Shown here: positions 13,699-23,620 of the stretch, piece after piece
How positions within the stretch are numbered: the first letter of the stretch is position 1
Layout of the letters: the number at the start of each line of letters is the position of its first letter
DNA from: a virus
Length of the DNA stretch: 35,002 nucleotides
Direction: 5' to 3' (one strand)
Virus record (IMG/VR): IMGVR_UViG_3300033412_000041
Translations under genes and position numbers: made by a program
The notes under the pieces: model-generated
What the model saw: only the letters and a program-made list of their open reading frames with translations
Told to the model about the DNA's origin: nothing
Database searches by the model: none

Positions 13699-14000
13699 TG
13701 GAATATAAATGCGAAGAATGTAAAGACACAAAAAAAATAATGGTAGAAGGAGTAAAACTAGGAAGACAATTTTATAGTAAGAAACTAAAAAAAGTTATTA
13801 CTCCATATGAAACTGATAGTAAATGGCAATTAACTGAATGTTATTGTGTAGTAGAAGAAATAATGACTAAAAAACCAAAGAATTATCATGAAGACTGCGA
13901 CTTTCATATAGTTGACGATAATGATAATTGTTCAGGATGTGAATACAAAAGATATATTGAAAATATAATAAATGAAATAACTTTATTGGAAATTAAATAA
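13698..14000 (+). CDS. Cys-rich hypothetical protein
   Basis: 100 aa with CEEC ... CYC ... CSGC. Coupled starts and stops (TAATG). Confidence 0.45.
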   Translation: MEYKCEECKDTKKIMVEGVKLGRQFYSKKLKKVITPYETDSKWQLTECYCVVEEIMTKKPKNYHEDCDFHIVDDNDNCSGCEYKRYIENIINEITLLEIK

Positions 14001-14185
14001 TGAAAACAGAAATAGAATGGTTTAAATATAAAGAAAAAAAACCAAAAGAAGATGGATGGTGCTTGGTAATTAAATACAATAGAGCTATGGATTTTTTGTA
14101 TTATAAAAAAGATAAGTCAGAATATGATCATTTTTCTCATATTGTTTATTTATGGTCAAAAGTTGAATATCCTAAAATTTATTAA
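14000..14185 (+). CDS. Small hypothetical protein (DUF551-like?)
   Basis: 61 aa. WFKYKEKKPKEDGWCLV is reminiscent of DUF551. Last gene of operon A. Confidence 0.35.
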   Translation: MKTEIEWFKYKEKKPKEDGWCLVIKYNRAMDFLYYKKDKSEYDHFSHIVYLWSKVEYPKIY

Positions 14186-14188
14186 TAT

Positions 14189-14650
14189 CTATTTTTTTAA
14201 TCTTCCAAAAATGAAACCGGGAATTTGATCTTGGTTTCCGAAATAAAACTTATAAATCTGTCTTATATCCCAAACCAAAAATATCATCATAAGAACCAAA
14301 ATATCTTTGATAACATCATCATCAACAACATATTTTATTAATATAATATCAATAAATACGGCAAACATAGCAGTCAATGCTAATAAAGGCCTTACAAACC
14401 TCAAATAACCAGTCTCACGCGATGATTCTTCCCTAGCATTCTGTACATCAGCAACTTGAGCTTCTAGCTCCTTGAGCTTTATAATTGCGTTAGGATCACT
14501 TTCTATCTTTTTTTGTATATCTTGTGGTTTAGAGATATCTATTCCACCCAACGCATGTGATATAAGATTACCAACCAATCCTCCTGCCGGACCTCCCAAA
14601 GCGGTTCCTAAAATAGGTGCTACATTGCTTATAATAGATACAATGCTCAT
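14189..14650 (-). CDS. Holin-like membrane protein (resembles the GTA-type 3TM holin family)
   Basis: 153 aa. Gly-rich N-terminus (LGTALGGPAGGLVGNLISHALGG), a central charged helix and C-terminal TM segments. Sits directly downstream of the lysozyme gene. Confidence 0.5.
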   Translation of the reverse strand: MSIVSIISNVAPILGTALGGPAGGLVGNLISHALGGIDISKPQDIQKKIESDPNAIIKLKELEAQVADVQNAREESSRETGYLRFVRPLLALTAMFAVFIDIILIKYVVDDDVIKDILVLMMIFLVWDIRQIYKFYFGNQDQIPGFIFGRLKK

Positions 14651-14651
14651 A

Positions 14652-15068
14652 TTAAAATTCTCCCGAGTTCATAATATTAACCAATCTATTCGCCCTATTA
14701 GTAAATTCAACATACCATTTGCTATTTTTCATTTCCTTAGATGCTAAAATATAATCATTATTTTCTAATGCAATTAGCATTTTTTTAAACTTTAATATTC
14801 CTGCAATACCCATTTGATATGCCATATTCAATAAAACATACTGCCTAGAAGTATCTAAAGTAGAAAAGAATGGAATATAAGATGAAAGATCTCTACTTAA
14901 TTTTTCTATATTTAATGATAACCAATGATCAGCAACTTCTTTAGGAATTAATGTTGTGTCTAAATTAAAACCATATCCAATTGTATTAAAACCTTTCGTA
15001 TCCTTATATAGTTTAGGACAAAATCCTTCATCATTTGCTATTAGTGAATTAATTTTAAACGAATTCAT
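14652..15068 (-). CDS. Endolysin, T4-type (GH24) lysozyme
   Basis: 138 aa. Catalytic signature NDEGFCPKLYKDTKGFNTIGYG (E-x8-D-x5-T). Confidence 0.8.
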   Translation of the reverse strand: MNSFKINSLIANDEGFCPKLYKDTKGFNTIGYGFNLDTTLIPKEVADHWLSLNIEKLSRDLSSYIPFFSTLDTSRQYVLLNMAYQMGIAGILKFKKMLIALENNDYILASKEMKNSKWYVEFTNRANRLVNIMNSGEF

Positions 15069-15096
15069 ATAATATCCTAACTTTTATTGTTAAGAT

Positions 15097-15105
15097 ATTA
15101 TATCA
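15097..15105 (-). promoter_or_regulatory. Extended -10 promoter (minus strand TGATATAAT) upstream of the lysis cassette
   Basis: Read in the 76-nt gap upstream of the lysozyme gene, followed by AGGATATTAT-ATG. Confidence 0.45.
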
Positions 15106-15144
15106 CATTTTGAATATCATAAAAAATTGAAACAATAACTATAT

Positions 15145-15360
15145 TTAAAATTTTGAAAAATATATAGATTTTCCTCTTGCTGTTTTTCTCATATTTTTCA
15201 TGTGATTCATTATAATTAAACCATCTTTATCATAATTTTTTTTACATAAATTTATACAAAAATCTATGTCAGAATCATTAATATTATTATTATCTATAAC
15301 AATATGCAAATTATTTCCTTGGTAATTTTTTATTAATTTCCCTAGTTCCATTGAGTTCAT
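15145..15360 (-). CDS. Hypothetical protein
   Basis: 71-aa ORF abutting the upstream gene (its start at 15360 follows that gene's stop, 15361-15363, directly). Confidence 0.4.
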   Translation of the reverse strand: MNSMELGKLIKNYQGNNLHIVIDNNNINDSDIDFCINLCKKNYDKDGLIIMNHMKNMRKTARGKSIYFSKF

Positions 15361-15678
15361 CTAGAAGTCTCCTTTCTCAACGATTTTAATCTTAACTGGA
15401 TATAAATCTTCCACAATTTTAACTTTAATCTTGAAAGTTTCCGTGGCCATACCCTTGACGTCCACAAAATCAACCGTACAATCTGAATTAAAAACTTGAA
15501 AATCAACAACATACTTAACACCGCCCGGTAAATGAAAAGGAACTTGCCTCAAGAAGAACAAAACTTCACCACTTTTCTGTAATAACTCTAAATATTTAAA
15601 ATATTTCCACTCCAATGTGCTCGGAAAACGATGTCCATCATCGTTAACTGCCTTAGCTTTAAATTTATGACTAATCAT
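15361..15678 (-). CDS. DUF1064-family protein (putative nuclease / junction resolvase-like)
   Basis: The track start (15711) is a TTG. An ATG at 15678 has GGGAG upstream. The motifs KFKAKAV..DGHRFPSTLEWKYFKYLELLQKSGEV..QVPFHL...DFVDVKG match DUF1064 from memory. Confidence 0.55.
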   Translation of the reverse strand: MISHKFKAKAVNDDGHRFPSTLEWKYFKYLELLQKSGEVLFFLRQVPFHLPGGVKYVVDFQVFNSDCTVDFVDVKGMATETFKIKVKIVEDLYPVKIKIVEKGDF

Positions 15679-15868
15679 TAAATAAATACTCCCATGTTTT
15701 TTCCATGACAAATATAAGTTGTAACAAAACTAAAGGAAATATTAATATAAAAACACAAATACCAATAATTGTATTTATTGAAATAATCTTCATTAATATT
15801 GAGCAAATAAGACTACTAAATAAATACTCTATAGATGCAATTATAAACATAAGATATATTTTCATCAT
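15671..15868 (-). CDS. Small membrane protein
   Basis: 65 aa, almost entirely hydrophobic with two predicted TM helices. Confidence 0.4.
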   Translation of the reverse strand: MMKIYLMFIIASIEYLFSSLICSILMKIISINTIIGICVFILIFPLVLLQLIFVMEKTWEYLFND

Positions 15869-16056
15869 AAAACACCTTCTTTGTTTTCTTCACTATAATC
15901 AGGAATTTCAATCAAAGTATCACAAGGTTTACTACACTTCTTACAAATATAATACGCAGATCCACTATCTGCGTATTGAACAAAAACTTTACTTTTACAA
16001 CATCTGCTTACTATTGGATCTCCGTACAACTTTTTCAATAAATTTAAACTACTCAC
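15865..16056 (-). CDS. Small zinc-ribbon protein
   Basis: 63 aa with CC...C..C pairs (RCCKSK...YICKKCSKPC). Confidence 0.4.
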   Translation of the reverse strand: MSSLNLLKKLYGDPIVSRCCKSKVFVQYADSGSAYYICKKCSKPCDTLIEIPDYSEENKEGVL

Positions 16057-16372
16057 CTACCACCTCCCAATCGTCTTCTATTAAATCCGATGAAAAAATA
16101 GGTAATTTAAGATTATAATTTTCATCTTTAATTAATTGATAATGTTTATGTAAATTATATTCCTTATTCCATACTTTTCTTCTAATATTTTTACCATTCT
16201 TAAAATCTTCAAAAACTTGATCAAATGTTTTTCCTGGTTCTTCTATTACTTCCCCATTTTTTTCTATTTGAACAAAATCATCTGCAAAATTATTTGGACC
16301 TTTTTCTTGTATATTAAACAAACTTTTAACTAATTCTAAATTAGCCGCTTCCATTGCTTCTTCAAATTTCAT
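16049..16372 (-). CDS. DUF2829 (Tad2-like) protein with a degenerate N-terminal duplicate
   Basis: 107 aa. The C-terminal half TFDQVFEDFKNGKNIRRKVWNKEY...SSDLIEDDWEVV fits DUF2829. The N-terminal 48 aa start MKFEEAMEAA and end FADDFVQIE, echoing the same domain ends. Confidence 0.5.
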   Translation of the reverse strand: MKFEEAMEAANLELVKSLFNIQEKGPNNFADDFVQIEKNGEVIEEPGKTFDQVFEDFKNGKNIRRKVWNKEYNLHKHYQLIKDENYNLKLPIFSSDLIEDDWEVVGE

Positions 16373-16716
16373 TTAATTTTCTCCTTTAATTTTTCAATAC
16401 TATTAGCAATTATTTCTATATGTTCATAAATCCTACTAATATCTCGTTTAATTAAATAAAATTCACTAAACTTTTTGCAATTATCAATATCATCTTTATT
16501 GAAACAAAAATATTTTTTACAATTATTTTTATGAAAATTTTTTGTTGATTTAATATCTAATTCACGAAAACACCAATATTTAGCTGCAGATAAATCAAAT
16601 CCATCAAAACTTTCACATAATAAATTAGAATTGCTATATTTATCATTCATATATTTACCATTATCTAATTTATACCATCCATTTTTTAACAAAAATTCAT
16701 CTTCTATATCTCTCAT
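16369..16716 (-). CDS. Hypothetical protein
   Basis: 115-aa ORF coupled at both ends. Confidence 0.4.
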   Translation of the reverse strand: MRDIEDEFLLKNGWYKLDNGKYMNDKYSNSNLLCESFDGFDLSAAKYWCFRELDIKSTKNFHKNNCKKYFCFNKDDIDNCKKFSEFYLIKRDISRIYEHIEIIANSIEKLKEKIK

Positions 16717-17396
16717 TTTACTCTCTCCGCAATTAACATTTCTTTAATTTCAGGTACTTCAAATGTAAAAATCTTTTCTAAAACTTCTACTCCTTTCAAT
16801 TTAGGATAATAACTACGAGCAATCTTCTTCAATTCTGTAAATTTGTCTGCAATCTGATACCAATTATCATACTCATAAATTTCTTTGAGCATTTTGCAAA
16901 CTTTTGCTCCTTCATCGATCAATCGATTTAAAGACACATTTGGATGCCGTGTAGGAGTTTTCTCTTGAGTCAGTACCATCACATCACTTTTGTATTTAAA
17001 CCTCTTAGAACCGTTTATAGACACGCACAACTCCATAAATTCACCCGCCGTAGGAGGCCATGAAGGATATCTTTCTGGCAATCTATCCAGAGCTTTTTTT
17101 ATAATATCGTTTGAAATGTCTTTCAAAGCATTGTCCCATATACGCAAAGCAGCCAAATATATTTCATCATCATTCAGTGAAATCGTGAATCTGTTAGAAT
17201 AAAAAGTCTGTAGAAGAACAAAGATCCGTTGTATTCTCGGATATTTCTCTTTCCCCTCTAACAGAACGGTCGTACTCCGGGAGACCGGCTGTGTTTCGTT
17301 CCCAGAAACGTTGTGCTGAAGATTTAACTTCTGATTGTTGATTTCCATAACTTCTCTCCTTAGTTGATTTAACTTCAAAAACACCTTGCCATCCAT
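16713..17396 (-). CDS. Lambda P-like replication protein (helicase-loader candidate); start uncertain
   Basis: 227 aa. RIWDNALKDISNDIIKKALDRLPERYPSWPPTAGEFMELC resembles the WPPSxxEF motif of P-type proteins from memory. The first 155-203 nt overlap the upstream gene out of frame. Confidence 0.4.
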   Translation of the reverse strand: MDGKVFLKLNQLRREVMEINNQKLNLQHNVSGNETQPVSRSTTVLLEGKEKYPRIQRIFVLLQTFYSNRFTISLNDDEIYLAALRIWDNALKDISNDIIKKALDRLPERYPSWPPTAGEFMELCVSINGSKRFKYKSDVMVLTQEKTPTRHPNVSLNRLIDEGAKVCKMLKEIYEYDNWYQIADKFTELKKIARSYYPKLKGVEVLEKIFTFEVPEIKEMLIAERVK

Positions 17397-18033
17397 TTGC
17401 CATGCTTTGGTTCAACACATCTTCTACGTTTTGACCTTCTGATCTCATCTTCTCCAAACGATTGATCATTTTCTTTTGCATAAGCTCTGTCATCGGCTTT
17501 TTCATTTCTTTTCTGAATTGTTTAAAATCTTCCCATAAATTTTTATCTAACCATTTAGGTAAATCGACAACAACAGCAACCTGATTTTTAGGTTGCGCCT
17601 TAATCTTATCTTTTATCTTTTGTTTATTATCTGGTTTATTATCTGGTATAGGTTGGGCGATTCCGCCCAATGGAGTGGGCGATTCCATACTTTCAATTGG
17701 GCATTTTCGCCCAAGAGTTAATCCAAACAAATTATGTCCATAGTCAGTCAAAGAGAACCATGTTGTTCTATCATAATTTATTTGATTAAAATTACCTTTC
17801 ATTAATAAATTAAGATCATATGATTTTTTTATTATTCTTTTTATTTGGTCTCTGCTCCAATATGGGAAAAGATCAGTTAATGCGCTTTGGGTGTTATATG
17901 TCCAATACCTATTTTCGTTAAAATTAATATCATTGGATTGATTGTGTTTAACCCAAAAAGATATATTTTTCATGAAAATCGAAACTTCTAGGCCATATTT
18001 TTTTGCTATATCAATATCAAATATATGTTGCAT
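17194..18033 (-). CDS. Replication initiator (O-like: N-terminal winged-HTH, C-terminal DnaD/DnaT-like segment)
   Basis: 279 aa. The N-terminus reads ...ISFWVKHNQ...RYWTYNTQSALTDLFPYWSRDQIKRIIKKSYDLNLL...DRTTWFSL and the C-terminus LPKWLDKNLWEDFKQFRKEMKKPMT...NGWQGVF. Iterons are embedded in the linker. Confidence 0.55.
   Translation of the reverse strand: MQHIFDIDIAKKYGLEVSIFMKNISFWVKHNQSNDINFNENRYWTYNTQSALTDLFPYWSRDQIKRIIKKSYDLNLLMKGNFNQINYDRTTWFSLTDYGHNLFGLTLGRKCPIESMESPTPLGGIAQPIPDNKPDNKQKIKDKIKAQPKNQVAVVVDLPKWLDKNLWEDFKQFRKEMKKPMTELMQKKMINRLEKMRSEGQNVEDVLNQSMANGWQGVFEVKSTKERSYGNQQSEVKSSAQRFWERNTAGLPEYDRSVRGEREISENTTDLCSSTDFLF
17623..17714. other. Candidate replication origin: tandem 12-mers plus three 22-bp-phased GC-rich iterons inside the initiator gene
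   Basis: TTTATTATCTGG x2 (17623-17646). TTGGGCGATTCCGCCCAA (17653-17670, dyad), GTGGGCGATTCC (17675-17686) and TTGGGCATTTTCGCCCAA (17697-17714, dyad). The iterons start exactly 22 bp apart. Confidence 0.5.
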
Positions 18034-18034
18034 A

Positions 18035-18220
18035 TTACTTCTCCATGTTCTTTCGCCATTCCAATGCCGCTTCCTTGCTAATCAAAACCTTTCTTTCTAA
18101 TTTAATTAATTTAGGTGCTTTTCCAGCTGCTATCAATCTATAAAATGTAACTTTACACATATTATGCATCTTACAAAATTCAGTTATTGTATAAGTATCT
18201 TTATTTTCATTTGTTATCAT
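18035..18220 (-). CDS. AlpA/excisionase-type (MerR-like) HTH protein, first gene of the replication operon
   Basis: YTITEFCKMHNMCKVTFYRLIAAGKAPKLIKLERKVLISKEAALEWR. I prefer the ATG at 18220 (AGGAAA upstream) because the promoter at 18252-18280 lies inside the longer track ORF. Confidence 0.55.
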   Translation of the reverse strand: MITNENKDTYTITEFCKMHNMCKVTFYRLIAAGKAPKLIKLERKVLISKEAALEWRKNMEK

Positions 18221-18251
18221 ATAATTTCCTATTGACATTCTATTTAATTGC

Positions 18252-18280
18252 AGTATACTAGTGTTTGTAAGATAAGTCAA
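18252..18280 (-). promoter_or_regulatory. Sigma70-like promoter for the minus-strand replication/early operon
   Basis: The minus strand reads TTGACT (18280-18275)-N17-TATACT (18257-18252). Confidence 0.6.
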
Positions 18281-18443
18281 ACATAATCAACCCCAAATGT
18301 TGGTAGGGAACATGGATACCAATAGGTCCCCAATAATGGATGTGCAGGTAATTATTGTTTGACAATTTATAACTAGGCACCCTTTCGTAAATTGATAAGG
18401 CTACCTCTGAATACATATTTAAATGAAATGATAAAAGTTTTAT

Positions 18444-18525
18444 GGAAAGATGGGTGAGCAGTTGAAACCGACAGGCTGTAAATCTGTTCTCAAAAGGCAC
18501 GCCAGTTCGAATCTAGCTCTTTCCA
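18444..18525 (+). tRNA. tRNA-Tyr(GTA)-like, class II (long variable arm), no encoded CCA
   Basis: Hand-folded cloverleaf:
- acceptor GGAAAGA/TCTTTCC
- 3-bp D stem GGT/ACC
- anticodon arm ACAGG-CTGTAAA-TCTGT
- 13-nt variable region
- T arm GCCAG-TTCGAAT-CTAGC with one C-A mismatch. Confidence 0.6.
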
Positions 18526-18537
18526 AATATGTTTTAC

Positions 18538-18684
18538 GGCATCATCGGCGTGGACAGTGACACTCTACATTGCATAGTGTAATCCTAGTTCGATTCTAGG
18601 CATTTGCAGGATAATAAAGGTATGCACCTGAATTATTAGCGATTGGTTAATGGAAACTATCCGGTGCAATTCCGGAATGATGCC
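18538..18684 (+). ncRNA. Unclassified 147-nt tRNA-like structured RNA candidate
   Basis: An 8-bp closing stem GGCATCAT/ATGATGCC encloses four elements:
- ACACT/AGTGT with an 11-nt loop
- a canonical T arm CCTAG-TTCGATT-CTAGG (18584-18600)
- a 6+4-bp hairpin (18612-18638)
- a second T-like arm TCCGG-TGCAATT-CCGGA (18660-18676) that abuts the closing stem
No ORF is present. Confidence 0.35.
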
Positions 18685-18822
18685 AATGTTAATTGTTTTT
18701 TAAGGAAATGTTAAATGTTTATGGCCGACGATACACTGATAAAAGTAGGATAAAAAGTTATGATTACTCATAACCGCTTTGCCGAGCGCAGTGGAAAATA
18801 GGCCACCAATTAAGGAGAAAAT

Positions 18823-19659
18823 ATGTTAAGACAAGTTATTATAGGAACTTCTTCGGTATTTGTTTGCATTTCATTAATTTCATGCACAAAAGTACCAGCA
18901 GGACATAAAGGAGTAATTGTAAATCTTTATGGATCAGACAAAGGTGTTTCAGAAGAAACAGTGGGAGTTGGTCGTTATTATCTTGGTTGGAACAAAGAAC
19001 TTTACCTTTTCCCAGTATTCTTGCAAAACTATACTTGGGCTGGTGAAGAACAAATTACCATGCAGACATCTGAAGGATTATCAATTTCAGCAGATGTTGG
19101 TGTTACGTATAATATTCATCCAGAAAATGTTTCAAAAGTATTTCAGAAATACAGATTAGGTATTGATGAAATTACTCATACTTTCCTCCACAATATGGTT
19201 AGAGATGCTATGAATCAAGTATCTTCTACTATGACGGTTGAACAGTTATATGGAGATAAAAAGGAACAATTTATTGTAAAAGTAAATGATATTGTAAAAA
19301 AAGAATGTCTAGAAGTTGGAATTGATATGGACAAAATATACCTTATTGGTTCATTTAAATTGCCTGATAATGTTGTTGAATCTATCAATGCAAAAATTCA
19401 AGCTAGTCAAAATGCTATGAAAGTAGAAAATGAAGTTGCTACAGCTAAAGCAGAAGCACTTAAAACGGTAGTAGTAGCAGAAGCTGAAGCGCAACGAATT
19501 TTAATAGATGCTAAAGCTAGAGCAGAATCAAATCGTTTATTATCTGAAAGTTTAACAACATCATTCATTCAGTATCAAACATTGCTTAAATGGGATGGAA
19601 AATTGCCACAAATTACTGGATCATCAACTATTCCAATGATTAACTTAAAGAGCAATTAA
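18823..19659 (+). CDS. SPFH/Band-7 (prohibitin-family) lipoprotein
   Basis: 278 aa. Signal peptide with lipobox LISC. The SPFH pattern is KVPAGHKGVIV...GLSISADVGVTYNI..., followed by an Ala/Glu-rich coiled coil and ...LKWDGKLPQ near the C-terminus. AAGGAG SD. Confidence 0.7.
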   Translation: MLRQVIIGTSSVFVCISLISCTKVPAGHKGVIVNLYGSDKGVSEETVGVGRYYLGWNKELYLFPVFLQNYTWAGEEQITMQTSEGLSISADVGVTYNIHPENVSKVFQKYRLGIDEITHTFLHNMVRDAMNQVSSTMTVEQLYGDKKEQFIVKVNDIVKKECLEVGIDMDKIYLIGSFKLPDNVVESINAKIQASQNAMKVENEVATAKAEALKTVVVAEAEAQRILIDAKARAESNRLLSESLTTSFIQYQTLLKWDGKLPQITGSSTIPMINLKSN

Positions 19660-19660
19660 C

Positions 19661-19849
19661 ATGAAAAAACTAATAATTATATGCATCATATCATTTATAA
19701 TCTTATATGATTTAGGTGTAATAATACCATGGATAATTTCTACAGCGTCAATTCCAATAATGTTAATAATGGCATTTTTATGTTTGCATGTAATTATTTT
19801 TTTATATTTATTATTTAAATCATTTAATTTTTTAAGGATATACCTATGA
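19661..19849 (+). CDS. Small polytopic membrane protein coupled to the SPFH gene
   Basis: 62 aa, almost fully hydrophobic. The ATG lies 1 nt after the SPFH stop. Confidence 0.5.
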   Translation: MKKLIIICIISFIILYDLGVIIPWIISTASIPIMLIMAFLCLHVIIFLYLLFKSFNFLRIYL

Positions 19850-20013
19850 AAATACAATTTGAAGCAGAATCAATCGGAAATTGGGCAGTTCGTTATAAAG
19901 TATATGGTGGTTGAATAGTAAATGATTTTAGTGGTTCAACAAATGATAATTTGAATAATACATTTAAAACATCTGTATTTGTTCCAGACCCAGAACACAA
20001 ATGGGAAGTTTAG
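19846..20013 (+). pseudogene. 55-codon frame with an in-frame TGA (19912-19914) where Trp is expected
   Basis: The ATG is coupled to the upstream stop as ATGA. Reads MKIQFEAESIGNWAVRYKVYGG*IVNDFSGSTNDNLNNTFKTSVFVPDPEHKWEV. The downstream part has no in-frame start. Confidence 0.4.
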
Positions 20014-20058
20014 TTTTTTTATGATACAGTACTACTTTTAATCAAAGGAAGTATTAAT

Positions 20059-20301
20059 ATGTCAATTAAAGAATTTCAAATTAGCTTTGCAGGACAAGGA
20101 ATCAACCCTCGATTTGGTCATCTATTGACTGATGACACATTAGCAGAAGTAGTAGTCTCGGGATATCTTAACCCATACATGAAAAGCCAAGGATTTAGTA
20201 TTTTACCTACAGATTTCATATTCGTAGTCGCATCTGATGGCCATCAAATTTATAAACCTGTTTTTAATGGTGAAATCGTCACTTTAACTGTACTACCTTA
20301 A
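20059..20301 (+). CDS. Hypothetical protein
   Basis: 80-aa ORF with AAAGGAAG upstream. Confidence 0.45.
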   Translation: MSIKEFQISFAGQGINPRFGHLLTDDTLAEVVVSGYLNPYMKSQGFSILPTDFIFVVASDGHQIYKPVFNGEIVTLTVLP

Positions 20302-20311
20302 GGAGATTAAA

Positions 20312-20422
20312 ATGAAACATTTAGAAAAAGCTAAGAAAATGATGAAAGAATCTAAGAAACATAAAGAGATGAGTAAAAAAGTTAAAGAAAAAGCAAAAAA
20401 AGTTGAAAAAAAGATAAAATAA
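20312..20422 (+). CDS. 36-aa lysine-rich peptide, not in the track
   Basis: AAGGAGATTAAA-ATG. My translation is MKHLEKAKKMMKESKKHKEMSKKVKEKAKKVEKKIK. Confidence 0.35.
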   Translation: MKHLEKAKKMMKESKKHKEMSKKVKEKAKKVEKKIK

Positions 20423-20472
20423 GTGTTAATATATATTTCTCCTTAATTTTCCCAAATCGTCCATTTGGTTTA

Positions 20473-20496
20473 AGCCCCTGGTCTGGGGCTTTTTTT
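20473..20496 (+). terminator. Rho-independent terminator ending plus-strand operon B
   Basis: AGCCCC-TGGTCT-GGGGCT followed by a 7-T run. Overlaps the stop of the convergent repressor-like gene. Confidence 0.75.
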
Positions 20497-20707
20497 ATTC
20501 ATCAGGCCTAAGATATTCTAAAGATATTTTAAGTCCTTTTATTCTAGCAATTGATATCAATTTATAGCATTTACTTAAAGATAGTCTTCTTCTTCCAGCT
20601 TCGCAATTAGACCAACCAGATTGGGACATCGAAAGAAGATTAGATATTTCAAATTGATCTAATCCTAATTGAATTCTTATATTTTTTAATTTTTCTTCTG
20701 GAGACAT
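20495..20707 (-). CDS. XRE-family (Cro/CI-type) HTH regulator
   Basis: LKNIRIQLGLDQFEISNLLSMSQSGWSNCEAGRRRLSL. I prefer the ATG at 20707 (GAGG 8 nt upstream) over the track start at 20719. Confidence 0.65.
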   Translation of the reverse strand: MSPEEKLKNIRIQLGLDQFEISNLLSMSQSGWSNCEAGRRRLSLSKCYKLISIARIKGLKISLEYLRPDE

Positions 20708-20735
20708 TTTGAACCTCATATTACTTATTGAATAA

Positions 20736-20751
20736 TAATATTATAATATTA
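20736..20751. promoter_or_regulatory. Perfect 16-bp palindrome TAATATTATAATATTA in the divergent regulatory region (candidate operator overlapping -10 elements)
   Basis: Read directly. It contains TATAAT on both strands and lies between the XRE gene and plus-strand operon C. On the minus strand, TTTACT sits 18 nt upstream of TATAAT. Confidence 0.35.
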
Positions 20752-20837
20752 AAATAAAAAATAGTAAAATAATACTTGCATTGATGTATTTCTTTATGAA
20801 ATAATATCCTTGTGTTAAATAAATTAAGGAAGATGTA

Positions 20838-21011
20838 ATGAGTGATTATAAAACAAGAGATATAGTTTCTCACATATTAGATAAAATGGGATTTAGATTA
20901 TTGGCTAAAGACGCAATGGAAGGTCGTAATTTAGATTCTTTGATATCTTATATAAAATACAAATATACTGGTAATTCTGAAGTACAAGAATTTATCGAAT
21001 ATTTTTTATAA
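20838..21011 (+). CDS. Hypothetical 57-aa protein, not in the track
   Basis: AAGGAAG upstream. My translation is MSDYKTRDIVSHILDKMGFRLLAKDAMEGRNLDSLISYIKYKYTGNSEVQEFIEYFL. Confidence 0.45.
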   Translation: MSDYKTRDIVSHILDKMGFRLLAKDAMEGRNLDSLISYIKYKYTGNSEVQEFIEYFL

Positions 21012-21025
21012 AGGAGATTGTTATT

Positions 21026-21376
21026 ATGAACAAAAAGGAAGTTCGAAAAGTTGCTTATGATTTGGTTGTGGATGGTAAAAAATGTATCACATCTTTGACT
21101 GATGAAGATAAAGAAATCATGACTTCTTTAATAATTGAAGGACATAACAAGGCAAATGCATTCGAATTTATTACTGAAGCAGATTCACATTTAGAATTGC
21201 CTTACATGTTAGCTAATTATATGCGTAAAAGGGATTCTGAGAGCGCTCAGGCAATTCTTGATTATATGGTAGATAATGCTATAAATTATGCTGGAAACGA
21301 CATTGTAGACTTTTTAATTGAACAAGAAGAAGAGTATAACTTCAACAAAAAATATGACGGAGGTTTCAATGAATAA
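21026..21376 (+). CDS. Hypothetical protein
   Basis: 116-aa acidic ORF with AAGGAG upstream. Confidence 0.45.
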   Translation: MNKKEVRKVAYDLVVDGKKCITSLTDEDKEIMTSLIIEGHNKANAFEFITEADSHLELPYMLANYMRKRDSESAQAILDYMVDNAINYAGNDIVDFLIEQEEEYNFNKKYDGGFNE

Positions 21377-21506
21377 CGATCATATTTCTTCAATGTCTAG
21401 AGTTTGTGATGATGAATTTGGTAAAGTTATGTACATATTTAACCATTACTTTTTTAGAAACAAACGGATTTGTAAGTTAAGACAAATATTAAGGAGATTT
21501 AAATGA
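21369..21506 (+). CDS. Hypothetical 45-aa protein (shortened from track ORF 21318..21506)
   Basis: The ATG at 21369 overlaps the preceding stop region. The stop overlaps the next ATG as ATGA. Confidence 0.35.
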   Translation: MNNDHISSMSRVCDDEFGKVMYIFNHYFFRNKRICKLRQILRRFK

Positions 21507-22171
21507 GTAATACAATACTGATTATCGGTGAGAGTGGAAGCGGAAAAAGCTCTTCAATAAGAAATCTAAACCATGAAGAGACAATAATAATAAATGTCTT
21601 GGACAAACCCCTGCCATTCAGGGGTTTCAAGAAAAAATATAATAGGAATTCTGATGAAAATAAATCAGCAAATTATTTTGCAACTGATGACTATAGAAAA
21701 ATAAGAGAGTGTATATCTAGGGTAAATTCAAAAAAAGAAATTAAAAACCTAATAATAGATGATTTTCAATACATAATGGCAAATATGTTTATGAAAAGAT
21801 CATCTGAGAGAGGTTACGATAAGTTCACAGAAATAGGACATAATGCTTGGCAAATAATAAGAGATTTGACTGAGTGTAGAGAAGATTTAAATTGCTACGT
21901 AATATCACATTCAGATGTTGATCAGTCTGGAAAAGCAAAATGCAAAACTATAGGAAAGATGCTAGATGATAAAATATGCTTGGAAGGAATGTTTACTATA
22001 GTATTTCATGCATTAACTAGCGATAACAAATATAGATTTTTGACACAAAATGATGGTATTCATATAGCAAAATCACCAATGGGAATGTTCGATAAAAAAT
22101 ATATAGACAATGATTTAAATGAAATAAATAAAGTTATTTTTGATTATTTTAATGAAGATATTAACCAATAA
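21503..22171 (+). CDS. P-loop ATPase, Sak4/AAA_24-like single-strand annealing recombinase candidate
   Basis: 222 aa. Walker A IIGESGSGKSS at the extreme N-terminus and Walker B LIIDDF. The size and layout are typical of core-only RecA-like phage ATPases. Confidence 0.5.
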   Translation: MSNTILIIGESGSGKSSSIRNLNHEETIIINVLDKPLPFRGFKKKYNRNSDENKSANYFATDDYRKIRECISRVNSKKEIKNLIIDDFQYIMANMFMKRSSERGYDKFTEIGHNAWQIIRDLTECREDLNCYVISHSDVDQSGKAKCKTIGKMLDDKICLEGMFTIVFHALTSDNKYRFLTQNDGIHIAKSPMGMFDKKYIDNDLNEINKVIFDYFNEDINQ

Positions 22172-22182
22172 GGATATTAAAT

Positions 22183-23019
22183 ATGCTAATGACAAGTTTT
22201 CATAATGATAATAAAATTAAGGAAAAATATCTTAATCGTGTAATTAAACACCGTGAAATGGATAACATTATACAAGGAACAGGATGGAAAAATGGTAAGG
22301 GATGTGCTGTTGGATGCACATTAGAAAATTATGATCACTCTCTATACCCAATAGAATTGGGATTACCAATATGGTTGGCTAAATTAGAGGATGTAATATT
22401 TGAAAATCTTCCTAATGAAGAAGCAATTTTATGGCCTGAATTGTTTTTGAGTTCTATTCCAGTTGGAGTATGTGTAGAAAAAGTAAAACATCAATTATCA
22501 ATTATTAGAATTAATAACATGTTAGAAATACAAAATAAATTACTTAAATATTATAAAAATTCAAATTTAGAAAAAATATTTATTGATGTTATTTCATCTA
22601 TTGAGTTAATTAAAAAATGTCATGAATCAGAATTAAATAAAAATTATTGCGATTGGTCATCAGCAGAGTCATCAGCATGGTCAGCAGTAGAGTCAGCAAT
22701 GTCAGCAGCAGAGTCAGCAGTAGAGTCAGCATGGTCAGCAAGGTCAGCAAGGTCAGCAATGTCAGCAGTAGAGTCAGCAATGTCAGCAGTAGAGTCAGCA
22801 AGGTCAGCAGCATGGTCAGCAAGGTCAGCAGTAGAGTCAGCAAGGTCAGAAGCATGGTCAGCAGCATGGTCAGCAGCAAGGTCAGCAGTAGAGTCAGCAA
22901 GGTCAGCAGCATGGTCAGCAGCATGGTCAGCAGCATGGTCAGCAGTAGAGTCAGAAAGGTCATATTCATGGAAAAAAGAAGCAAATAATTTAATTGAACT
23001 ACTTAAACAATGTAAATAG
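22183..23019 (+). CDS. Two-part protein: conserved Cys-containing N-terminal domain plus a C-terminal (x-S-A) repeat helix
   Basis: 278 aa. The N-terminus reads ...DNIIQGTGWKNGKGCAVGCTLENYDHSLYPIELGLPIWLAKLEDVIFENLP... and residues 158-259 are SAW/SAVE/SAM/SAR/SAAW units. Function unknown. Confidence 0.6.
   Translation: MLMTSFHNDNKIKEKYLNRVIKHREMDNIIQGTGWKNGKGCAVGCTLENYDHSLYPIELGLPIWLAKLEDVIFENLPNEEAILWPELFLSSIPVGVCVEKVKHQLSIIRINNMLEIQNKLLKYYKNSNLEKIFIDVISSIELIKKCHESELNKNYCDWSSAESSAWSAVESAMSAAESAVESAWSARSARSAMSAVESAMSAVESARSAAWSARSAVESARSEAWSAAWSAARSAVESARSAAWSAAWSAAWSAVESERSYSWKKEANNLIELLKQCK
22657..22962 (+). repeat. Coding micro-repeat array: 26 TCAGCA (+2 TCAGAA) cores in 9- and 12-nt units
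   Basis: Counted by eye. The units are TGG/AGG/ATG/GAG + TCAGCA with an optional GCA or GTA. Every Ser is TCA, every Ala GCA, Arg AGG and Glu GAG. The region is open in several frames on both strands. Confidence 0.85.
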
Positions 23020-23028
23020 GAGAAACTT

Positions 23029-23133
23029 ATGGAACAAAATGAAGAAATTATGTTAACTGATTATCAAGAAAAAATTAAAGAAATCATACAGAAAATTGAT
23101 CTAGCAATGGAAGCAATGGAGACAATTCAATGA
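23029..23133 (+). CDS. 34-aa acidic peptide, not in the track
   Basis: AGGAGAAACTT-ATG. My translation is MEQNEEIMLTDYQEKIKEIIQKIDLAMEAMETIQ. The stop overlaps the next start as ATGA. Confidence 0.35.
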   Translation: MEQNEEIMLTDYQEKIKEIIQKIDLAMEAMETIQ

Positions 23134-23555
23134 AAATTACACCTAGAACTGAAGAAGAAATTAAGAGAAGGAATTTAATCGATCCTGGAGTATATGAATT
23201 TATCGTACATGAAGCAAAAGAAAAAGTATCTAAAACAAGCGGAAATCCTATGATTGAAGTTGTTTTGAAAGTAACAGATATTTACGGAAAAGTTCATACA
23301 TTGTACGATTATTTGATGGATACAGAATATTCTGATTATAAAATTAGGCATCTTTCAGAATGCTCAGGTTGTTTGGATAAATATGAAAATGGAGAAGTTT
23401 TTGCTTCAGATTTTTTAGGTAAAAAAGGTAAAGTTAAGGTAACAATAAGGAAAGATAAAAAAGGAGAAAGAGAAGATAAAAATTCTGTTCAAGATTATAT
23501 AGCTAATAAATTAATAAATATTGATAATTTTGAAGATGATTCTTTACCATTTTAA
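23130..23555 (+). CDS. Phage single-stranded DNA-binding protein (DUF669-like) with an SSB-type acidic tail
   Basis: 141 aa. The C-terminus ...NIDNFEDDSLPF mimics the bacterial SSB tip DDDIPF. The N-terminus NLIDPGVYEFIVHEAKEKVSKTSGNPMIEV fits DUF669 from memory. Confidence 0.5.
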   Translation: MKITPRTEEEIKRRNLIDPGVYEFIVHEAKEKVSKTSGNPMIEVVLKVTDIYGKVHTLYDYLMDTEYSDYKIRHLSECSGCLDKYENGEVFASDFLGKKGKVKVTIRKDKKGEREDKNSVQDYIANKLINIDNFEDDSLPF

Positions 23556-23572
23556 ATAATTGTTTAATTTAG

Positions 23573-23620
23573 TATCCTACATGTGATAAAATAGAACAGT
23601 TTTTAATCATGTGTAGGATA
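23573..23620 (+). promoter_or_regulatory. 15-bp RNA hairpin whose 3' arm contains the SD of the next gene
   Basis: TATCCTACATGTGAT (23573-23587) pairs with ATCATGTGTAGGATA (23606-23620). Two positions are G-U wobbles in the plus-sense RNA only. AGGA at 23615-23618 lies 6 nt before the ATG at 23625. Confidence 0.5.

What the first reader, a model, noticed from the sequence alone, without database searches (positions are those of the whole stretch)
18281..18822. ORF-free RNA island: class II tRNA-Tyr-like gene followed by a nested 147-nt tRNA-like structure upstream of the SPFH gene
This is the longest non-coding stretch in a very compact genome (about 540 nt), and it is visibly more GC-rich than its surroundings.

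18444-18525 folds by hand into a tRNA with anticodon loop CTGTAAA (GTA, Tyr). It has a 3-bp D stem and a 13-nt variable region, but also a C-A mismatch in the T stem and a poorly paired variable arm.

Twelve nucleotides later comes a second structure (18538-18684):
- An 8-bp stem, GGCATCAT (18538-18545) with ATGATGCC (18677-18684), closes a multi-helix domain.
- ACACT/AGTGT with an 11-nt loop CTACATTGCAT.
- A perfect canonical T arm CCTAG-TTCGATT-CTAGG.
- A 6+4-bp hairpin TAATAA-AGGT-ATGC-ACCT-GAA-TTATTA.
- A second T-like arm TCCGG-TGCAATT-CCGGA, stacked directly on the closing stem. This gives an acceptor/T minihelix of 8+5 bp.

I could not complete a standard cloverleaf around the canonical T arm, because no 5' partner exists for CATTTGC. 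The element is therefore not a normal tRNA. Options:
- a novel tRNA-like ncRNA, such as a decoy for tRNA-targeting defences or nucleases, or a substrate for CCA-adding or aminoacylating enzymes
- a tRNA carrying an insertion
- a remnant tRNA 3' half acting as a recombination site

Further hairpins (GTTATG/CATAAC at 18757-18775, CGCT/AGCG) lie in the SPFH leader.
Basis: seen in the sequence. Interest (0 to 1): 0.7.

Follow-up and report, generated by a model that had tools for sequence, protein, structure and literature searches.

The report
Phage array of tRNA-like RNAs
The gene-free stretch holds a real tRNA-Tyr followed by two structured RNAs, each from a widespread phage RNA family absent from the Rfam catalogue; one is a tRNA-shaped cloverleaf with a variable insert, probably cut out by the host's tRNA-processing enzymes.

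Summary
18444-18525 is a genuine class II tRNA-Tyr(GUA): Rfam 49.4 bits, and ARAGORN agrees.

The 147-nt element 18538-18684 is not a tRNA, tmRNA or any Rfam 15 family. It belongs to a large family, here called "A". Its 17-mer GGYGUGGACAGUGACAC occurs in at least 120 IMG/VR contigs and in 7 bacterial genome bins from 6 phyla.

Family A anatomy:
- P1: closing stem of 7-12 bp, covarying at every position.
- 2-nt linker.
- P2: 5-bp hairpin with loop GACAGUGA.
- A variable centre of 29 to about 270 nt.
- P4: 5-bp hairpin with T-loop-like UGCAAUU, stacked on P1.

A covariance model built without the window finds exactly 18538-18684 (69 bits).

Family A copies lie inside true tRNA arrays at tRNA-like spacing, or tightly between co-oriented phage genes.

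Best reading (inferred, untested): tRNA-Tyr, A and B are co-transcribed and processed by RNase P and other tRNA-maturation enzymes. Rivals: self-cleaving ribozymes, cis-regulators, tRNA decoys or binders. The att-remnant and pseudogene ideas are rejected.

The parts
18232..18280 (.). Divergent promoter-like sites. + strand: TTGACA 18232-18237, 16-nt spacer, TATACT 18254-18259; it could drive the RNA array and the SPFH gene. - strand: TTGACT, 17-nt spacer, TATACT (18280-18252), for the HTH gene.
   Evidence: Consensus scan gives 11/12 and 10/12 matches. The block is 91% identical in the relative L090. These are consensus matches only; function is not shown.
18437..18443 (+). Leader GUUUUAU immediately 5' of tRNA-Tyr. 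It is the first of three similar leaders that precede each RNA unit.
   Evidence: Read from the sequence. Similar leaders lie at 18531-18537 (GUUUUAC) and 18717-18722 (GUUUAU). Family-wide, position -1 is U in 66% of A and 91% of B copies, and position -2 is A in 60% and 84%.
18444..18525 (+). tRNA-Tyr, anticodon GUA. Class II with a long variable region, discriminator A, and no encoded CCA.
   Evidence: ARAGORN at default settings. Rfam RF00005 scores 49.4 bits against a gathering score of 29, E = 7.8e-08.
18538..18684 (+). Family-A tRNA-like cloverleaf RNA, whole unit.
   Evidence: Model R1, built without the window, scores 69 bits with E = 5.9e-16 over exactly these coordinates. It is the only hit in the window.
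18538..18545 (+). A-P1 5' strand, GGCAUCAU (acceptor-like closing stem). It pairs with 18677-18684.
   Evidence: All 10 P1 columns covary across 84 members, with 4-6 pair types per column. The nearest relative L090 has GUCAUCAG/CUGAUGAC, which is two compensatory double changes.
18548..18565 (+). A-P2 hairpin GCGUG-GACAGUGA-CACUC (D-arm-like, with one C.U mismatch in this copy). It follows the 2-nt linker CG at 18546-18547.
   Evidence: The C-G to U-A covariation at the second pair occurs 9 times. The stem changes to UCGCU/AGCGA, GCUUG/CAAGC and GCGCG/CGCGC while the loop stays GACAGUGA.
18566..18659 (+). A variable centre ('cargo'). It holds the hairpin UACAUU/AGUGUA, the canonical T-arm-like hairpin CCUAG-UUCGAUU-CUAGG (18584-18600), and the hairpin UAAUAA-AGGU-AUGC-ACCU-GAA-UUAUUA (18612-18638).
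   Evidence: MFE fold. This region is not alignable among family members, and its length runs from 29 to about 270 nt. It is unrelated in L090.
18660..18676 (+). A-P4 hairpin UCCGG-UGCAAUU-CCGGA (T-arm-like, loop fits the T-loop motif). It is stacked directly on the P1 3' strand.
   Evidence: Four of 5 pairs covary and 98.6% of cells are paired. The window's basal U-A replaces the usual G-C. The loop UGCAAUU is nearly invariant.
18677..18684 (+). A-P1 3' strand, AUGAUGCC. It is followed by AAUG, so no CCA is encoded here.
18722..18808 (+). Family-B RNA unit. P1 is U-GGCC (18722-18726) with GGCC-A (18801-18805). J1/2 is GACGAUAC (18727-18734). P2 starts with ACUG (18735-18738) paired to CAGU (18789-18792). 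The interior is variable and includes GUUAUG/CAUAAC at 18757-18775. J2/1 is GGAAAAUA (18793-18800). The 3' end reads A-CCA (18805-18808).
   Evidence: 43 non-redundant instances share both conserved strands, and 30 IMG/VR contigs match the exact pattern. Compensatory P1 changes occur: GCCC/GGGC and GGAC/GUCC. The first P2 pair varies as U.G, U-A, C-G and A-U. Covariation is 0.31 against 0.17 for shuffled and 0.10-0.15 for slid controls. There is a weak Rfam RAGATH-22 hit of 23 bits against a gathering score of 120.
18812..19659 (+). Shine-Dalgarno sequence AAGGAG followed by the SPFH/Band_7 gene (ATG at 18823). Its mRNA starts right after unit B.
   Evidence: Pfam PF01145, E = 6.6e-28. The same B 3' end plus leader GGCCACCAAUUAAGGAGAAA precedes a different gene in L090.

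Best explanation
The island is a co-transcribed array of three RNA units upstream of the SPFH gene.
- Unit 1 is a functional tRNA-Tyr(GUA).
- Unit 2 (family A) is a tRNA-shaped cloverleaf. An acceptor-like stem P1 stacks on a T-arm-like hairpin P4. A 2-nt linker leads to a D-arm-like hairpin P2. The loops of P2 and P4 probably meet to form an elbow. The anticodon and variable arms are replaced by a free-to-vary insert.
- Unit 3 (family B) is a stem-closed junction RNA ending in GGCC-ACCA.

Proposed mechanism: the host's tRNA-maturation machinery recognises the acceptor/T minihelix and elbow of A, and the stem plus NCCA of B, just as it does the neighbouring tRNA. That machinery is RNase P at the U|G junction after each GUUU(U)AY leader, followed by 3' trimming and, where needed, CCA addition. 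Processing would cut the polycistronic transcript into discrete stable small RNAs. It would also define the ends of the flanking mRNAs; here the SPFH mRNA would begin just after unit B.

Shown: the RNAs are real, conserved, strand-specific structures of two families, and family A occupies tRNA slots and intercistronic gaps.

Inferred: transcription, cleavage by RNase P, stability, and whatever the variable insert does.
For: Structure and family membership:
- Model R1, built without the window, hits 18538-18684 at 69 bits.
- Across 84 members, 92% of cells are paired and covariation is 0.60, against 0.16 for shuffled and 0.06-0.11 for slid controls.
- The P2 stem covaries while its loop stays fixed.
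- G.U pairs with almost no mismatches in the core columns put the structure on the + (gene-sense) strand.

tRNA-like anatomy:
- 7-12 bp P1 plus 5 bp P4 stacked on it, a 2-nt linker, a 5-bp P2 with an 8-nt loop, and a 7-nt loop UGCAAUU.
- The smallest members are 80-81-nt four-way cloverleaves followed by ACCA.

It sits in tRNA slots:
- Family A lies inside real tRNA arrays, always on the same strand, 6-10 nt from its neighbours. In L203 the order is Thr-Asn-Pro-[A]-Met-Arg-Met..Tyr. L130 and L131 have it 6-7 nt from tRNA-Gln. L187 and L208 are further cases.
- 12 of 82 instances have a tRNA within 600 nt.

It sits between cistrons:
- Neighbouring genes are co-oriented in 63 of 81 cases upstream and 62 of 79 downstream.
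- 19 of 63 copies start within 14 nt after the previous stop codon. 25 of 62 end 9-36 nt before the next start codon.

Leaders and ends:
- All three window units share a GUUU(U)AY|G leader.
- Family-wide, position -1 is U in 66% of A and 91% of B copies.
- Most B units and about 20% of A units are followed by NCCA.
- U at -1, G at +1 and RCCA are known RNase P substrate preferences (my own knowledge).

Partner and distribution:
- No dedicated partner protein is encoded nearby. The best neighbour cluster occurs in 11 of 86 loci, and all clusters are ordinary phage genes.
- The core is identical in phages and bins of Planctomycetota, Chloroflexota, Acidobacteriota, Bacteroidota, Nitrospirota and Legionella. 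This points to a universal host partner.

Precedents:
- T4 rnaC and rnaD are stable RNAs of unknown function in the T4 tRNA cluster (PMC9697503).
- Plant mitochondrial t-elements are tRNA-like signals cut by RNase P and RNase Z to make mRNA ends (PMC1920247).
Against: - There are no expression, end-mapping or cleavage data for any member.
- Simple RNase P or RNase Z recognition needs shape, not sequence. It does not explain why the loops GACAGUGA and UGCAAUU are so strictly conserved, although part of that invariance comes from fetching members with an exact 17-mer.
- Encoded CCA follows only about 20% of A copies, and not the window copy.
- The window copy has a C.U mismatch in P2 and C rather than U at position -1.
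- The Rfam tRNA model does not recognise even the minimal member.
- B's P1 is only 4-5 bp, which is short for an RNase P substrate.
- Units of this kind occur in the same kind of phage context where self-cleaving ribozymes are found.
Confidence: 0.5

Rival explanations
1. Units A and/or B are self-cleaving ribozymes of undescribed classes. They would cut the phage transcript at their own 5' edge, the U|G junction, without host enzymes, as hatchet or HDV-like ribozymes do.
For: - The conserved nucleotides are concentrated in loops and junctions, around helices that are free to vary in sequence and length.
- The units occur in tandem arrays with other stem-closed units in ORF-free stretches of up to 1.5 kb (L223 3913-5410).
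- There is no consistent gene association.
- The only Rfam resemblances are to RAGATH-21 and RAGATH-22. From my own knowledge, these motifs were found by searching near ribozyme-associated genes.
- The leader is strongly conserved at positions -2 and -1.
Against: - No Rfam ribozyme family (hammerhead, twister, twister-sister, pistol, hatchet, HDV-like) matches at E <= 10.
- A's conserved nucleotides lie in two hairpin loops arranged like a tRNA elbow, not around a junction or active-site-like internal loop.
- A occupies slots in tRNA arrays, where RNase P already acts.
- Nothing computational can show catalysis.
Confidence: 0.13
2. A is a trans-acting tRNA mimic or a tRNA-elbow binder. One version is a decoy or sponge for host factors or defences that recognise tRNA shape, such as tRNA nucleases, modification enzymes or RNase P. 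The other is an RNA whose two T-loop-like pentamers (AGUGA and UGCAA) form an interdigitated double T-loop that docks onto tRNA elbows.
For: - The loops are strictly conserved across phages of many phyla while the stems vary. This fits recognition by a universal partner.
- There are several copies per genome.
- A is often near phage tRNA genes, and tRNA-Tyr lies near A in L153, L159, L187, L203 and the window.
- The AG bulge AGCGA/AGAGA and the apical loop G..UG..A of T-box Stem I form the platform that stacks on the tRNA elbow (PMC11404447). The A loops resemble these two pentamers.
Against: - The resemblance to the double T-loop rests on two pentamers only. No 3D model or binding data exist.
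- The variable centre has no conserved anticodon-like or specifier-like feature.
- Many copies are wedged between cistrons within a few nt of stop and start codons. That suits a processing element better than a dedicated sRNA gene.
- No defence or anti-defence gene is consistently adjacent.
Confidence: 0.17
3. A and B are cis-acting 5'-UTR regulators of the gene downstream (here SPFH). They could be a riboswitch, a T-box-like sensor, or a translational enhancer or attenuator.
For: - B ends 3 nt before the SD region of SPFH. The identical B 3' end plus leader precedes another gene in L090.
- 25 of 62 A copies end 9-36 nt upstream of a start codon.
Against: - Downstream genes are unrelated: AAA_24, portal, terminase, Tad2-like, DUF3310, PD-(D/E)XK, SPFH and a Pribosyl_synth-like protein. 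A ligand-sensing riboswitch would not show this.
- Many copies are followed by another RNA unit or a tRNA rather than a gene.
- No terminator or anti-SD alternative pairing is conserved.
Confidence: 0.1
4. The element is evolutionary debris. It would be overlapping degenerate tRNA pseudogenes (18522-18609 and 18599-18685), or the 3' half of a host tRNA left as an attP core.
For: - ARAGORN at 60-80% thresholds draws two poor overlapping cloverleaves.
- A perfect TTCGATT T arm followed by CATTTGC sits in the centre.
Against: - Debris would not be conserved in architecture with compensatory changes across more than 100 unrelated phage contigs.
- There is no Rfam tRNA score for either pseudo-tRNA.
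- The 24-mer CCTAGTTCGATTCTAGGCATTTGC is absent from IMG/VR.
- No integrase was seen among the window proteins scanned, although not every ORF was scanned.
Confidence: 0.02

Closest known systems
Phage T4 species 1 and species 2 RNAs (rnaC, rnaD)
   Same: - They are small stable non-tRNA RNAs (139 and 119 nt) encoded in a phage tRNA cluster. They lie on the same strand, 1-6 nt from the neighbouring tRNA-Arg.
- rnaC has a T arm next to its 3' end.
- Their function is still unknown (PMC9697503).
   Different: - There is no sequence or model homology: R1 gives no significant hit on the T4 cluster.
- T4 rnaC has a canonical UUCGAAU T loop and no GACAGUGA hairpin.
- Family A was not found in any of 50,697 GenBank phage records.
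Plant mitochondrial t-elements (tRNA-like mRNA processing signals)
   Same: They are non-decoding, non-canonical cloverleaves embedded in mRNA precursors. Their ends coincide with mRNA ends, and they are cut by RNase P and RNase Z, sometimes with C/CCA added (PMC1920247). Their intercistronic position is like that of family A.
   Different: - t-elements are degenerate copies of organellar tRNAs with the canonical GGTTCRANYCC arm.
- Family A has its own invariant loops, a large variable insert, and a distribution across phages of many phyla.
- Processing of A is not shown.
Rfam RAGATH-21 (RF03097) and RAGATH-22 (RF03098)
   Same: - The RAGATH-21 consensus has a long closing stem with a short hairpin GGa-UGCAAUU-uCC stacked on its 3' strand. 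This is the same T-loop module as A-P4 (alignment).
- RAGATH-22 gives the best weak hit over unit B.
- From my own knowledge, both are orphan motifs from phage-like metagenomic contexts.
   Different: - Scores are far below gathering: 19.3 against 70.3 bits for a homologue in L018, with no RAGATH-21 hit in the window, and 23 against 120.3 bits for RAGATH-22.
- The RAGATH-21 5' half (CUUAAUAGAAA...) has no P2 hairpin.
- The predicted RAGATH-22 pairs are mostly broken in the window alignment.
tRNA-like domains of tmRNA and of bacterial Y RNA (YrlA)
   Same: Both have an acceptor-like stem stacked on a T arm, with the anticodon arm replaced by another domain. From my own knowledge, both are matured by tRNA enzymes.
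   Different: - ARAGORN finds no tmRNA at default settings. There is no G3:U70 pair and no tag reading frame.
- There is no Rfam tmRNA or Y-RNA hit at E <= 10.
- Those RNAs keep canonical D-loop and T-loop sequences, and they work with SmpB or Ro. Neither protein family turned up among the recurrent neighbour clusters.
Interdigitated double T-loop of T-box Stem I, RNase P and the L1 stalk
   Same: The two conserved pentamers in A, AGUGA and UGCAA, look like the AG-bulge AGNGA and the apical-loop UGNNA that build the tRNA-elbow docking platform (PMC11404447).
   Different: In A the pentamers lie in two separate hairpin loops of a cloverleaf, not in a bulge plus terminal loop of one helix. Whether they interdigitate is untested, so this is a lead only.

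Membership tests
tRNA (Rfam RF00005), applied to 18444-18525 | The cloverleaf scores at or above the curated gathering score, with a 7-nt anticodon loop. | tested here: met
   49.4 bits against a gathering score of 29. ARAGORN calls tRNA-Tyr(gta) at default settings.
tRNA (Rfam RF00005), applied to 18538-18684 | A covariance-model match, canonical D-loop and T-loop sequences, and a 5-bp anticodon stem with a 7-nt loop. | tested here: not met
   No tRNA hit at E <= 10 on 18527-18700, nor on the minimal 80-nt member in L138. ARAGORN calls only overlapping pseudo-tRNAs, at 60-80% thresholds.
tmRNA | A tRNA-like domain with G3:U70, a resume codon and tag reading frame, and pseudoknots. | tested here: not met
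   ARAGORN with -m at default settings finds none. At ps70 it gives only implausible 'permuted' calls spanning 500 nt. P1 has C3:G70.
Family A (model R1, defined here) | P1 closing stem, 2-nt linker, P2 with loop GACAGUGA, variable centre, and P4 with loop UGCAAUU stacked on P1. | tested here: met
   69 bits, E = 5.9e-16, with the full model 1-131 matched and the window excluded from the model. One C.U mismatch in P2.
Family B (defined here) | P1 GGCC/GGCC, J1/2 GACGAUAC, variable P2, J2/1 GGAAAAUA, and a 3' NCCA. | tested here: met
   Both conserved strings match exactly at 18723-18734 and 18793-18802. P2 pairs in register (ACUG/CAGU). ACCA lies at 18805-18808. No covariance model was built for B.
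RAGATH-21 (RF03097) | A score at or above the 70.3-bit gathering score. | tested here: not met
   No hit in the window at E <= 10. The family-A homologue in L018 scores 19.3 bits over its 3' half only.
RAGATH-22 (RF03098) | A score at or above the 120.3-bit gathering score. | tested here: not met
   23 bits, E = 0.043, with many non-canonical pairs.
Known self-cleaving ribozyme classes in Rfam (hammerhead, twister, twister-sister, pistol, hatchet, HDV-like) | A covariance-model match to the catalytic core. | tested here: not met
   None is listed at E <= 10 for the window 18200-18900, L018 2230-2700 or L138 6700-7200. None reaches gathering in 40 related loci.
RNase P substrate (functional class) | Cleavage by RNase P at the 5' end of the acceptor-like stem. 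| not testable with these tools
   Only indirect evidence is available: the minihelix geometry, the U(-1)/G(+1) junction, NCCA in some copies, and placement in tRNA arrays.
T4 rnaC/rnaD-type stable RNAs | Homology to the T4 RNAs. | tested here: not met
   R1 with filters off on the T4 tRNA cluster gives a best hit of 10 bits, on tRNA-Ser. They are analogous in context only.

The most novel reading that the evidence does not exclude
Families A and B are units of a previously unrecognised kind of phage 'RNA operon'. These would be arrays of stem-closed RNAs that borrow tRNA processing signals. In this reading, family A is more than a passive processing signal. It would be a natural tRNA-shaped scaffold whose two invariant loops (AGUGA within GACAGUGA, and UGCAA within UGCAAUU) form an interdigitated double T-loop. 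That would make a platform that docks onto tRNA elbows or onto RNase P. The variable insert would be the cargo it presents. A phage RNA of this kind would capture or redirect host tRNAs or tRNA enzymes in hosts from many phyla.
Probability: 0.12. Interest if true: 0.85.

Novelty: new variant of a known kind. Interest (0 to 1): 0.62.

Why it matters
Non-tRNA stable RNAs in phage tRNA clusters have been known since T4's species 1 and 2 RNAs, and they remain unexplained.

This work adds a sharply defined and much more widespread family:
- It occurs in at least 120 viral contigs and in hosts from at least 6 phyla.
- It often has several copies per genome.
- Its structure is supported by covariation, and two of its loops are invariant.
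- It carries an insert that is free to vary.

A companion family (B) and larger multi-unit arrays were found with it.

If tRNA enzymes process these units, they are a general phage device for punctuating polycistronic transcripts and for expressing small RNAs. They would also be a natural counterpart of the engineered 'tRNA scaffold'.

If the conserved loops bind tRNA or RNase P, the family would be a new way for phages to act on the host translation apparatus.

Either way, the model and coordinates make the question directly testable in vitro.

Tried and rejected
- **Close relatives in GenBank phages:** blastn of 18200-18900 and megablast of 10000-30000 found none. A typical family-A sequence also found nothing.
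- **Upstream of SPFH homologues:** I expected the island to be conserved there. It is not. Homology in 80 IMG/VR loci starts at the SPFH start codon.
- **Relatives of the upstream 279-aa gene:** they have a divergent intergenic gap of only 70-110 nt and no SPFH gene, so the island plus SPFH looks like an insertion.
- **Exact window-specific patterns:** TCCGGTGCAATTCCGGAATGATGCC and CCTAGTTCGATTCTAGGCATTTGC each gave 0 viral contigs.
- **ARAGORN intron, tmRNA and low-threshold modes:** they returned only poor overlapping pseudo-tRNAs and implausible permuted tmRNAs.
- **Rfam at E <= 10 on three family members:** this gave only sub-threshold RAGATH-21/22 hits and obvious chance hits.
- **Literature:** no paper holds the conserved strings, and 'RAGATH-22' appears in no searchable paper. 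The supplements of Weinberg 2017 and Fremin 2023 are not held. I therefore cannot exclude that the motif sits unnamed among the 8,495 IMG/VR candidates of PMC10690425.
- **Dedicated neighbour protein:** none was found.
- **Genome scan with the 18-mer:** 43 hits, of which only 7 are full family members by R1. The rest, including three Pantoea species, look like coding or chance matches.
- **Not used:** the metagenome scan, structure prediction and the representative-protein search. None bore on an RNA question.
Full report
**Setting**

The window is a P22-like phage genome of about 35 kb. It encodes a P22-type portal, a P22-type coat protein, a large terminase, a lysozyme and a Tad2-like protein. 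Genes to the left of about 18280 run on the minus strand, and genes from 18823 run on the plus strand.

The stretch 18281-18822 lies between an HTH gene and an SPFH/Band_7 gene. It is preceded by overlapping divergent promoter-like sites at 18232-18280. Its G+C content is 0.37-0.41, against 0.25-0.31 in most of the neighbourhood.

**Observation check**

- ARAGORN finds one tRNA in the whole window: tRNA-Tyr(gta) at 18443-18526. Rfam's tRNA model scores 18444-18525 at 49.4 bits, against a gathering score of 29.
- That fold is only modestly better than shuffles (z = -2.17). By my estimate, an 8-bp perfect complement is expected once or twice by chance in 540 nt. The sequence alone does not decide the matter.

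**What known detectors say about 18538-18684**

No Rfam 15 family matches at gathering. Nothing meaningful matches at E <= 10. There is no second tRNA, tmRNA, Y RNA, ribozyme or riboswitch.

ARAGORN draws two poor, mutually overlapping cloverleaves (18522-18609 and 18599-18685), but only at 60-80% of its normal threshold. Its tmRNA calls at that level are implausible.

**Relatives**

The region has no blastn relative among 50,697 GenBank phages. Homologues of the SPFH gene in 80 IMG/VR loci share nothing upstream of the start codon.

Relatives of the upstream 279-aa gene have only a 70-110-nt divergent gap and no SPFH gene. The island plus SPFH therefore looks like an accessory insertion.

A sensitive blastn against all fetched loci gave short matches. 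Reading those places showed the key point: the same architecture recurs with different stem sequences.

**Family A**

In 86 non-redundant instances the layout is always the same:
- P1, a closing stem of 7-12 bp.
- A 2-nt linker, CG.
- P2, GCGUG-GACAGUGA-CACGC.
- A centre of 29 to about 270 nt with its own hairpins.
- P4, a 5-bp hairpin with the loop UGCAAUU, abutting the P1 3' strand.

Total length is 80-311 nt.

On a fixed-register alignment of 84 instances:
- 92% of cells are standard pairs.
- The covariation score is 0.60, against 0.16 for shuffled partners and 0.06-0.11 for partners slid by 1-3 columns.
- All ten P1 columns and four of five P4 columns show double changes, with up to six pair types.
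- P2 shows C-G to U-A nine times.

Caveat: the instance finder required P1 and P4 pairing, so the paired percentage is partly by construction. However, 86 of 108 17-mer sites passed a filter that chance would essentially never satisfy.

A covariance model, R1, was built from 51 members without the window:
- It finds exactly 18538-18684 at 69 bits, E = 6e-16, and nothing else in the window.
- It hits about 97 of 100 17-mer loci, several with two or three copies.
- In loci fetched for other reasons, it finds divergent members in which the P2 stem is rewritten (UCGCU/AGCGA, GCUUG/CAAGC, GCGCG/CGCGC) while the loop GACAGUGA stays.

G.U pairs without A.C mismatches place the structure on the strand given, which is the sense strand of the neighbouring genes.

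The window copy is a somewhat divergent member:
- A C.U mismatch in P2.
- A U-A basal pair in P4 in place of the usual G-C.
- No encoded CCA.

Its nearest relative, in L090, has:
- The identical leader AAAUGUUUUAC|G.
- P1 with two compensatory double changes (GGCAUCAU/AUGAUGCC against GUCAUCAG/CUGAUGAC).
- A compensated P4.
- An unrelated, much shorter centre.

The canonical T arm and the AU-rich hairpin belong to the variable insert.

**Family B**

The SPFH leader is not a set of loose hairpins. 18722-18808 reads U-GGCC-GACGAUAC-[variable hairpins]-GGAAAAUA-GGCC-A-CCA.

- The two conserved strings, at the right spacing, occur in 30 IMG/VR contigs.
- 43 non-redundant instances were collected by sequence alone.
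- P1 shows rare compensations (GCCC/GGGC, GGAC/GUCC).
- The first pair of P2 varies as U.G, U-A, C-G and A-U.
- Covariation is 0.31, against 0.17 for shuffled and 0.10-0.15 for slid controls.
- Most copies are followed by NCCA.
- The only Rfam echo is a 23-bit hit to RAGATH-22, whose gathering score is 120.

**Arrays and context**

- A and B co-occur: about 10 of 30 B-selected loci also carry A.
- They combine with other stem-closed units in ORF-free arrays joined by short A/U-rich linkers ending UAU|GG. L223 3913-5410 holds about a dozen units. L018 and L138 show further unit types ending in ACCA.
- In the window, all three units (tRNA-Tyr, A and B) are preceded by GUUU(U)AY. Family-wide, position -1 is U in 66% of A and 91% of B copies.
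- A lies inside genuine tRNA arrays on the same strand, 6-10 nt from its neighbours. Examples are L203 (Thr-Asn-Pro-[A]-Met-Arg-Met..Tyr), L130, L131, L187 and L208.
- Elsewhere A is wedged between co-oriented genes. Neighbours are co-oriented in 63 of 81 cases upstream and 62 of 79 downstream. 19 of 63 copies start within 14 nt after a stop codon, and 25 of 62 end 9-36 nt before a start codon.
- No neighbouring protein family recurs in more than 11 of 86 loci. The recurrent ones are ordinary phage genes: AAA_24, DUF669, portal, terminase, Tad2-like, DUF3310 and PD-(D/E)XK.
- An 18-mer scan of one genome per prokaryotic species gave 43 hits. Seven are full members by R1: Planctomycetota (two), Chloroflexota, Blastocatellia, Bacteroidota, Nitrospira sp. 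BLG_1 and a Legionella MAG. The rest look like coding or chance matches.

**Comparison with known systems**

- *T4 rnaC and rnaD.* These stable RNAs of 139 and 119 nt sit directly after tRNA-Arg in the T4 tRNA cluster. rnaC has a T arm next to its 3' end. Their function is still unknown (PMC9697503). R1 shows no homology to them.
- *Plant mitochondrial t-elements.* These are non-canonical cloverleaves in mRNA precursors that RNase P and RNase Z cut to make mRNA ends (PMC1920247). This is the closest functional analogue.
- *RAGATH-21.* It shares the module 'closing stem + UGCAAUU hairpin' but not the 5' half, and scores are far below threshold.
- *tmRNA and YrlA.* They share the idea of an acceptor/T minihelix with a replaced anticodon arm, but neither is detected.
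- *Literature.* No paper in the searchable library holds the conserved strings. The IMG/VR catalogue of 8,495 candidate RNAs (PMC10690425) might contain these motifs unnamed, but its supplement could not be read.

**Mechanism**

The shared, position-fixed features are those that tRNA-maturation enzymes read:
- A helix of 12-13 or more stacked base pairs ending in a T-loop hairpin.
- A 2-nt connector to a D-arm-like hairpin.
- A U|G junction after an A/U-rich leader.
- NCCA in many copies.
- Placement in tRNA slots.

I therefore think the most likely mechanism is this. The island is transcribed as one precursor, possibly from the promoter-like site at 18232-18259. RNase P and 3'-processing enzymes then release tRNA-Tyr, A and B. 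This also sets the 5' end of the SPFH mRNA. That step is inferred, not shown; confidence is about 0.5.

This reading does not explain the strict conservation of the two loops across phages of many phyla. Part of that conservation is ascertainment, because members were fetched with the 17-mer. Even so, the unbiased members keep the loops while rewriting the stems.

The loops contain AGUGA and UGCAA. These resemble the two T-loop pentamers (AGNGA, UGNNA) that interdigitate in T-box Stem I to form the tRNA-elbow docking platform (PMC11404447). This is a lead, not a finding. It motivates the novel reading that A binds tRNA or RNase P rather than merely resembling a tRNA.

Self-cleaving ribozymes remain a real rival, especially for B, whose conserved nucleotides line a two-helix junction. 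A gene-specific riboswitch is unlikely, because the downstream genes are unrelated. Pseudogene and att-remnant readings are rejected.

**Verdict**

- The finding is real and more interesting than a stray odd tRNA.
- It is a three-unit RNA array whose second and third units belong to two widespread, structurally supported phage RNA families. Both are absent from Rfam 15 and were not traceable in the literature searched.
- The kind of element is known (tRNA-like stable or processing RNAs in phage tRNA regions; orphan RAGATH-type motifs). These families and their anatomy appear to be new variants of it.
- Function is inferred only.

Noticed in passing
L223 3913-5410: A 1.5-kb ORF-free array of about a dozen different stem-closed RNA units joined by AAAGAAUUAU|GG linkers. 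It includes family A (twice), family B (three times), units with canonical UUCGA T arms, and a unit with a GCAGG-UGAAAUU-CCUGC hairpin stacked on its closing stem.
   Followed up: partly
L018 2270-2420; L138 6760-6900 (minus strand): Further unit types precede or follow A and B. Examples are GGGAUG...CAUCCC-ACCA in L018 and GAAGC...GCUUC-ACCA in L138. Each ends in ACCA plus a (A/G)UUUAY linker. They suggest more undescribed families in the same arrays.
   Followed up: no
window 18281-19849, compared with L088 3727-3837 and L090 1884-1957: Relatives of this phage have only a 70-110-nt divergent gap at this site and no SPFH gene. The RNA island plus SPFH (and perhaps the 62-aa ORF at 19661-19849) looks like an inserted accessory ('moron') module. 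SPFH homologues sit in unrelated contexts in other phages.
   Followed up: partly
L090 1145-1450 (minus strand): The same A-B pair, with identical 5' leader and identical B 3' end plus SD, precedes a different gene in a related phage. That gene encodes a 253-aa protein with a weak, sub-threshold Pribosyl_synth match. The A copy there follows directly after the stop codon of a 50-aa ORF and has no tRNA upstream.
   Followed up: partly
L129 3466-3605 (same contig as L001, IMGVR_UViG_3300037510_000228): The phage whose SPFH protein is 92% identical to the window's also carries a family-A copy, but elsewhere in its genome. Its insert likewise contains T-arm-like hairpins (GAGA-CUUCGAAU-UCUC and UGG-UUCGAUU-CCA).
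   Followed up: no
window 13112-13288: A 58-aa ORF matches the Thoeris anti-defence Tad2-like domain (PF11195, E = 4e-11). Tad2-like genes also recur near family-A copies in other loci.
   Followed up: no
window 18291-18308 (minus strand): A terminator-like hairpin CCCUACCAACAUUUGGGG followed by a U-rich tail lies on the minus strand just upstream of the HTH gene's promoter-like site. It could insulate that gene from antisense read-through. A second weak + strand promoter-like site (TTGATA, 16-nt spacer, CATATT; 18392-18419) lies just before the tRNA.
   Followed up: no
L251, L255, L278 (Pantoea spp.) and other low-scoring genome hits: The 18-mer CGGYGTGGACAGTGACAC also occurs in three Pantoea species and several high-G+C genomes, but without the rest of the family-A structure (R1 17-25 bits). 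These are probably coding or chance matches (the 18-mer could encode GVDSDT). They are a warning against counting 17-mer hits as members.
   Followed up: partly
L153, L159, L187, L203 and window 18444-18525: tRNA-Tyr(GUA) is the tRNA most often seen near family-A copies: 5 loci including the window. The window's tRNA-Tyr resembles those of L159 and L187. From my own knowledge, phage tRNA-Tyr has been linked to escape from a tRNA-Tyr-cleaving retron effector. Whether that is relevant here is unknown.
   Followed up: no
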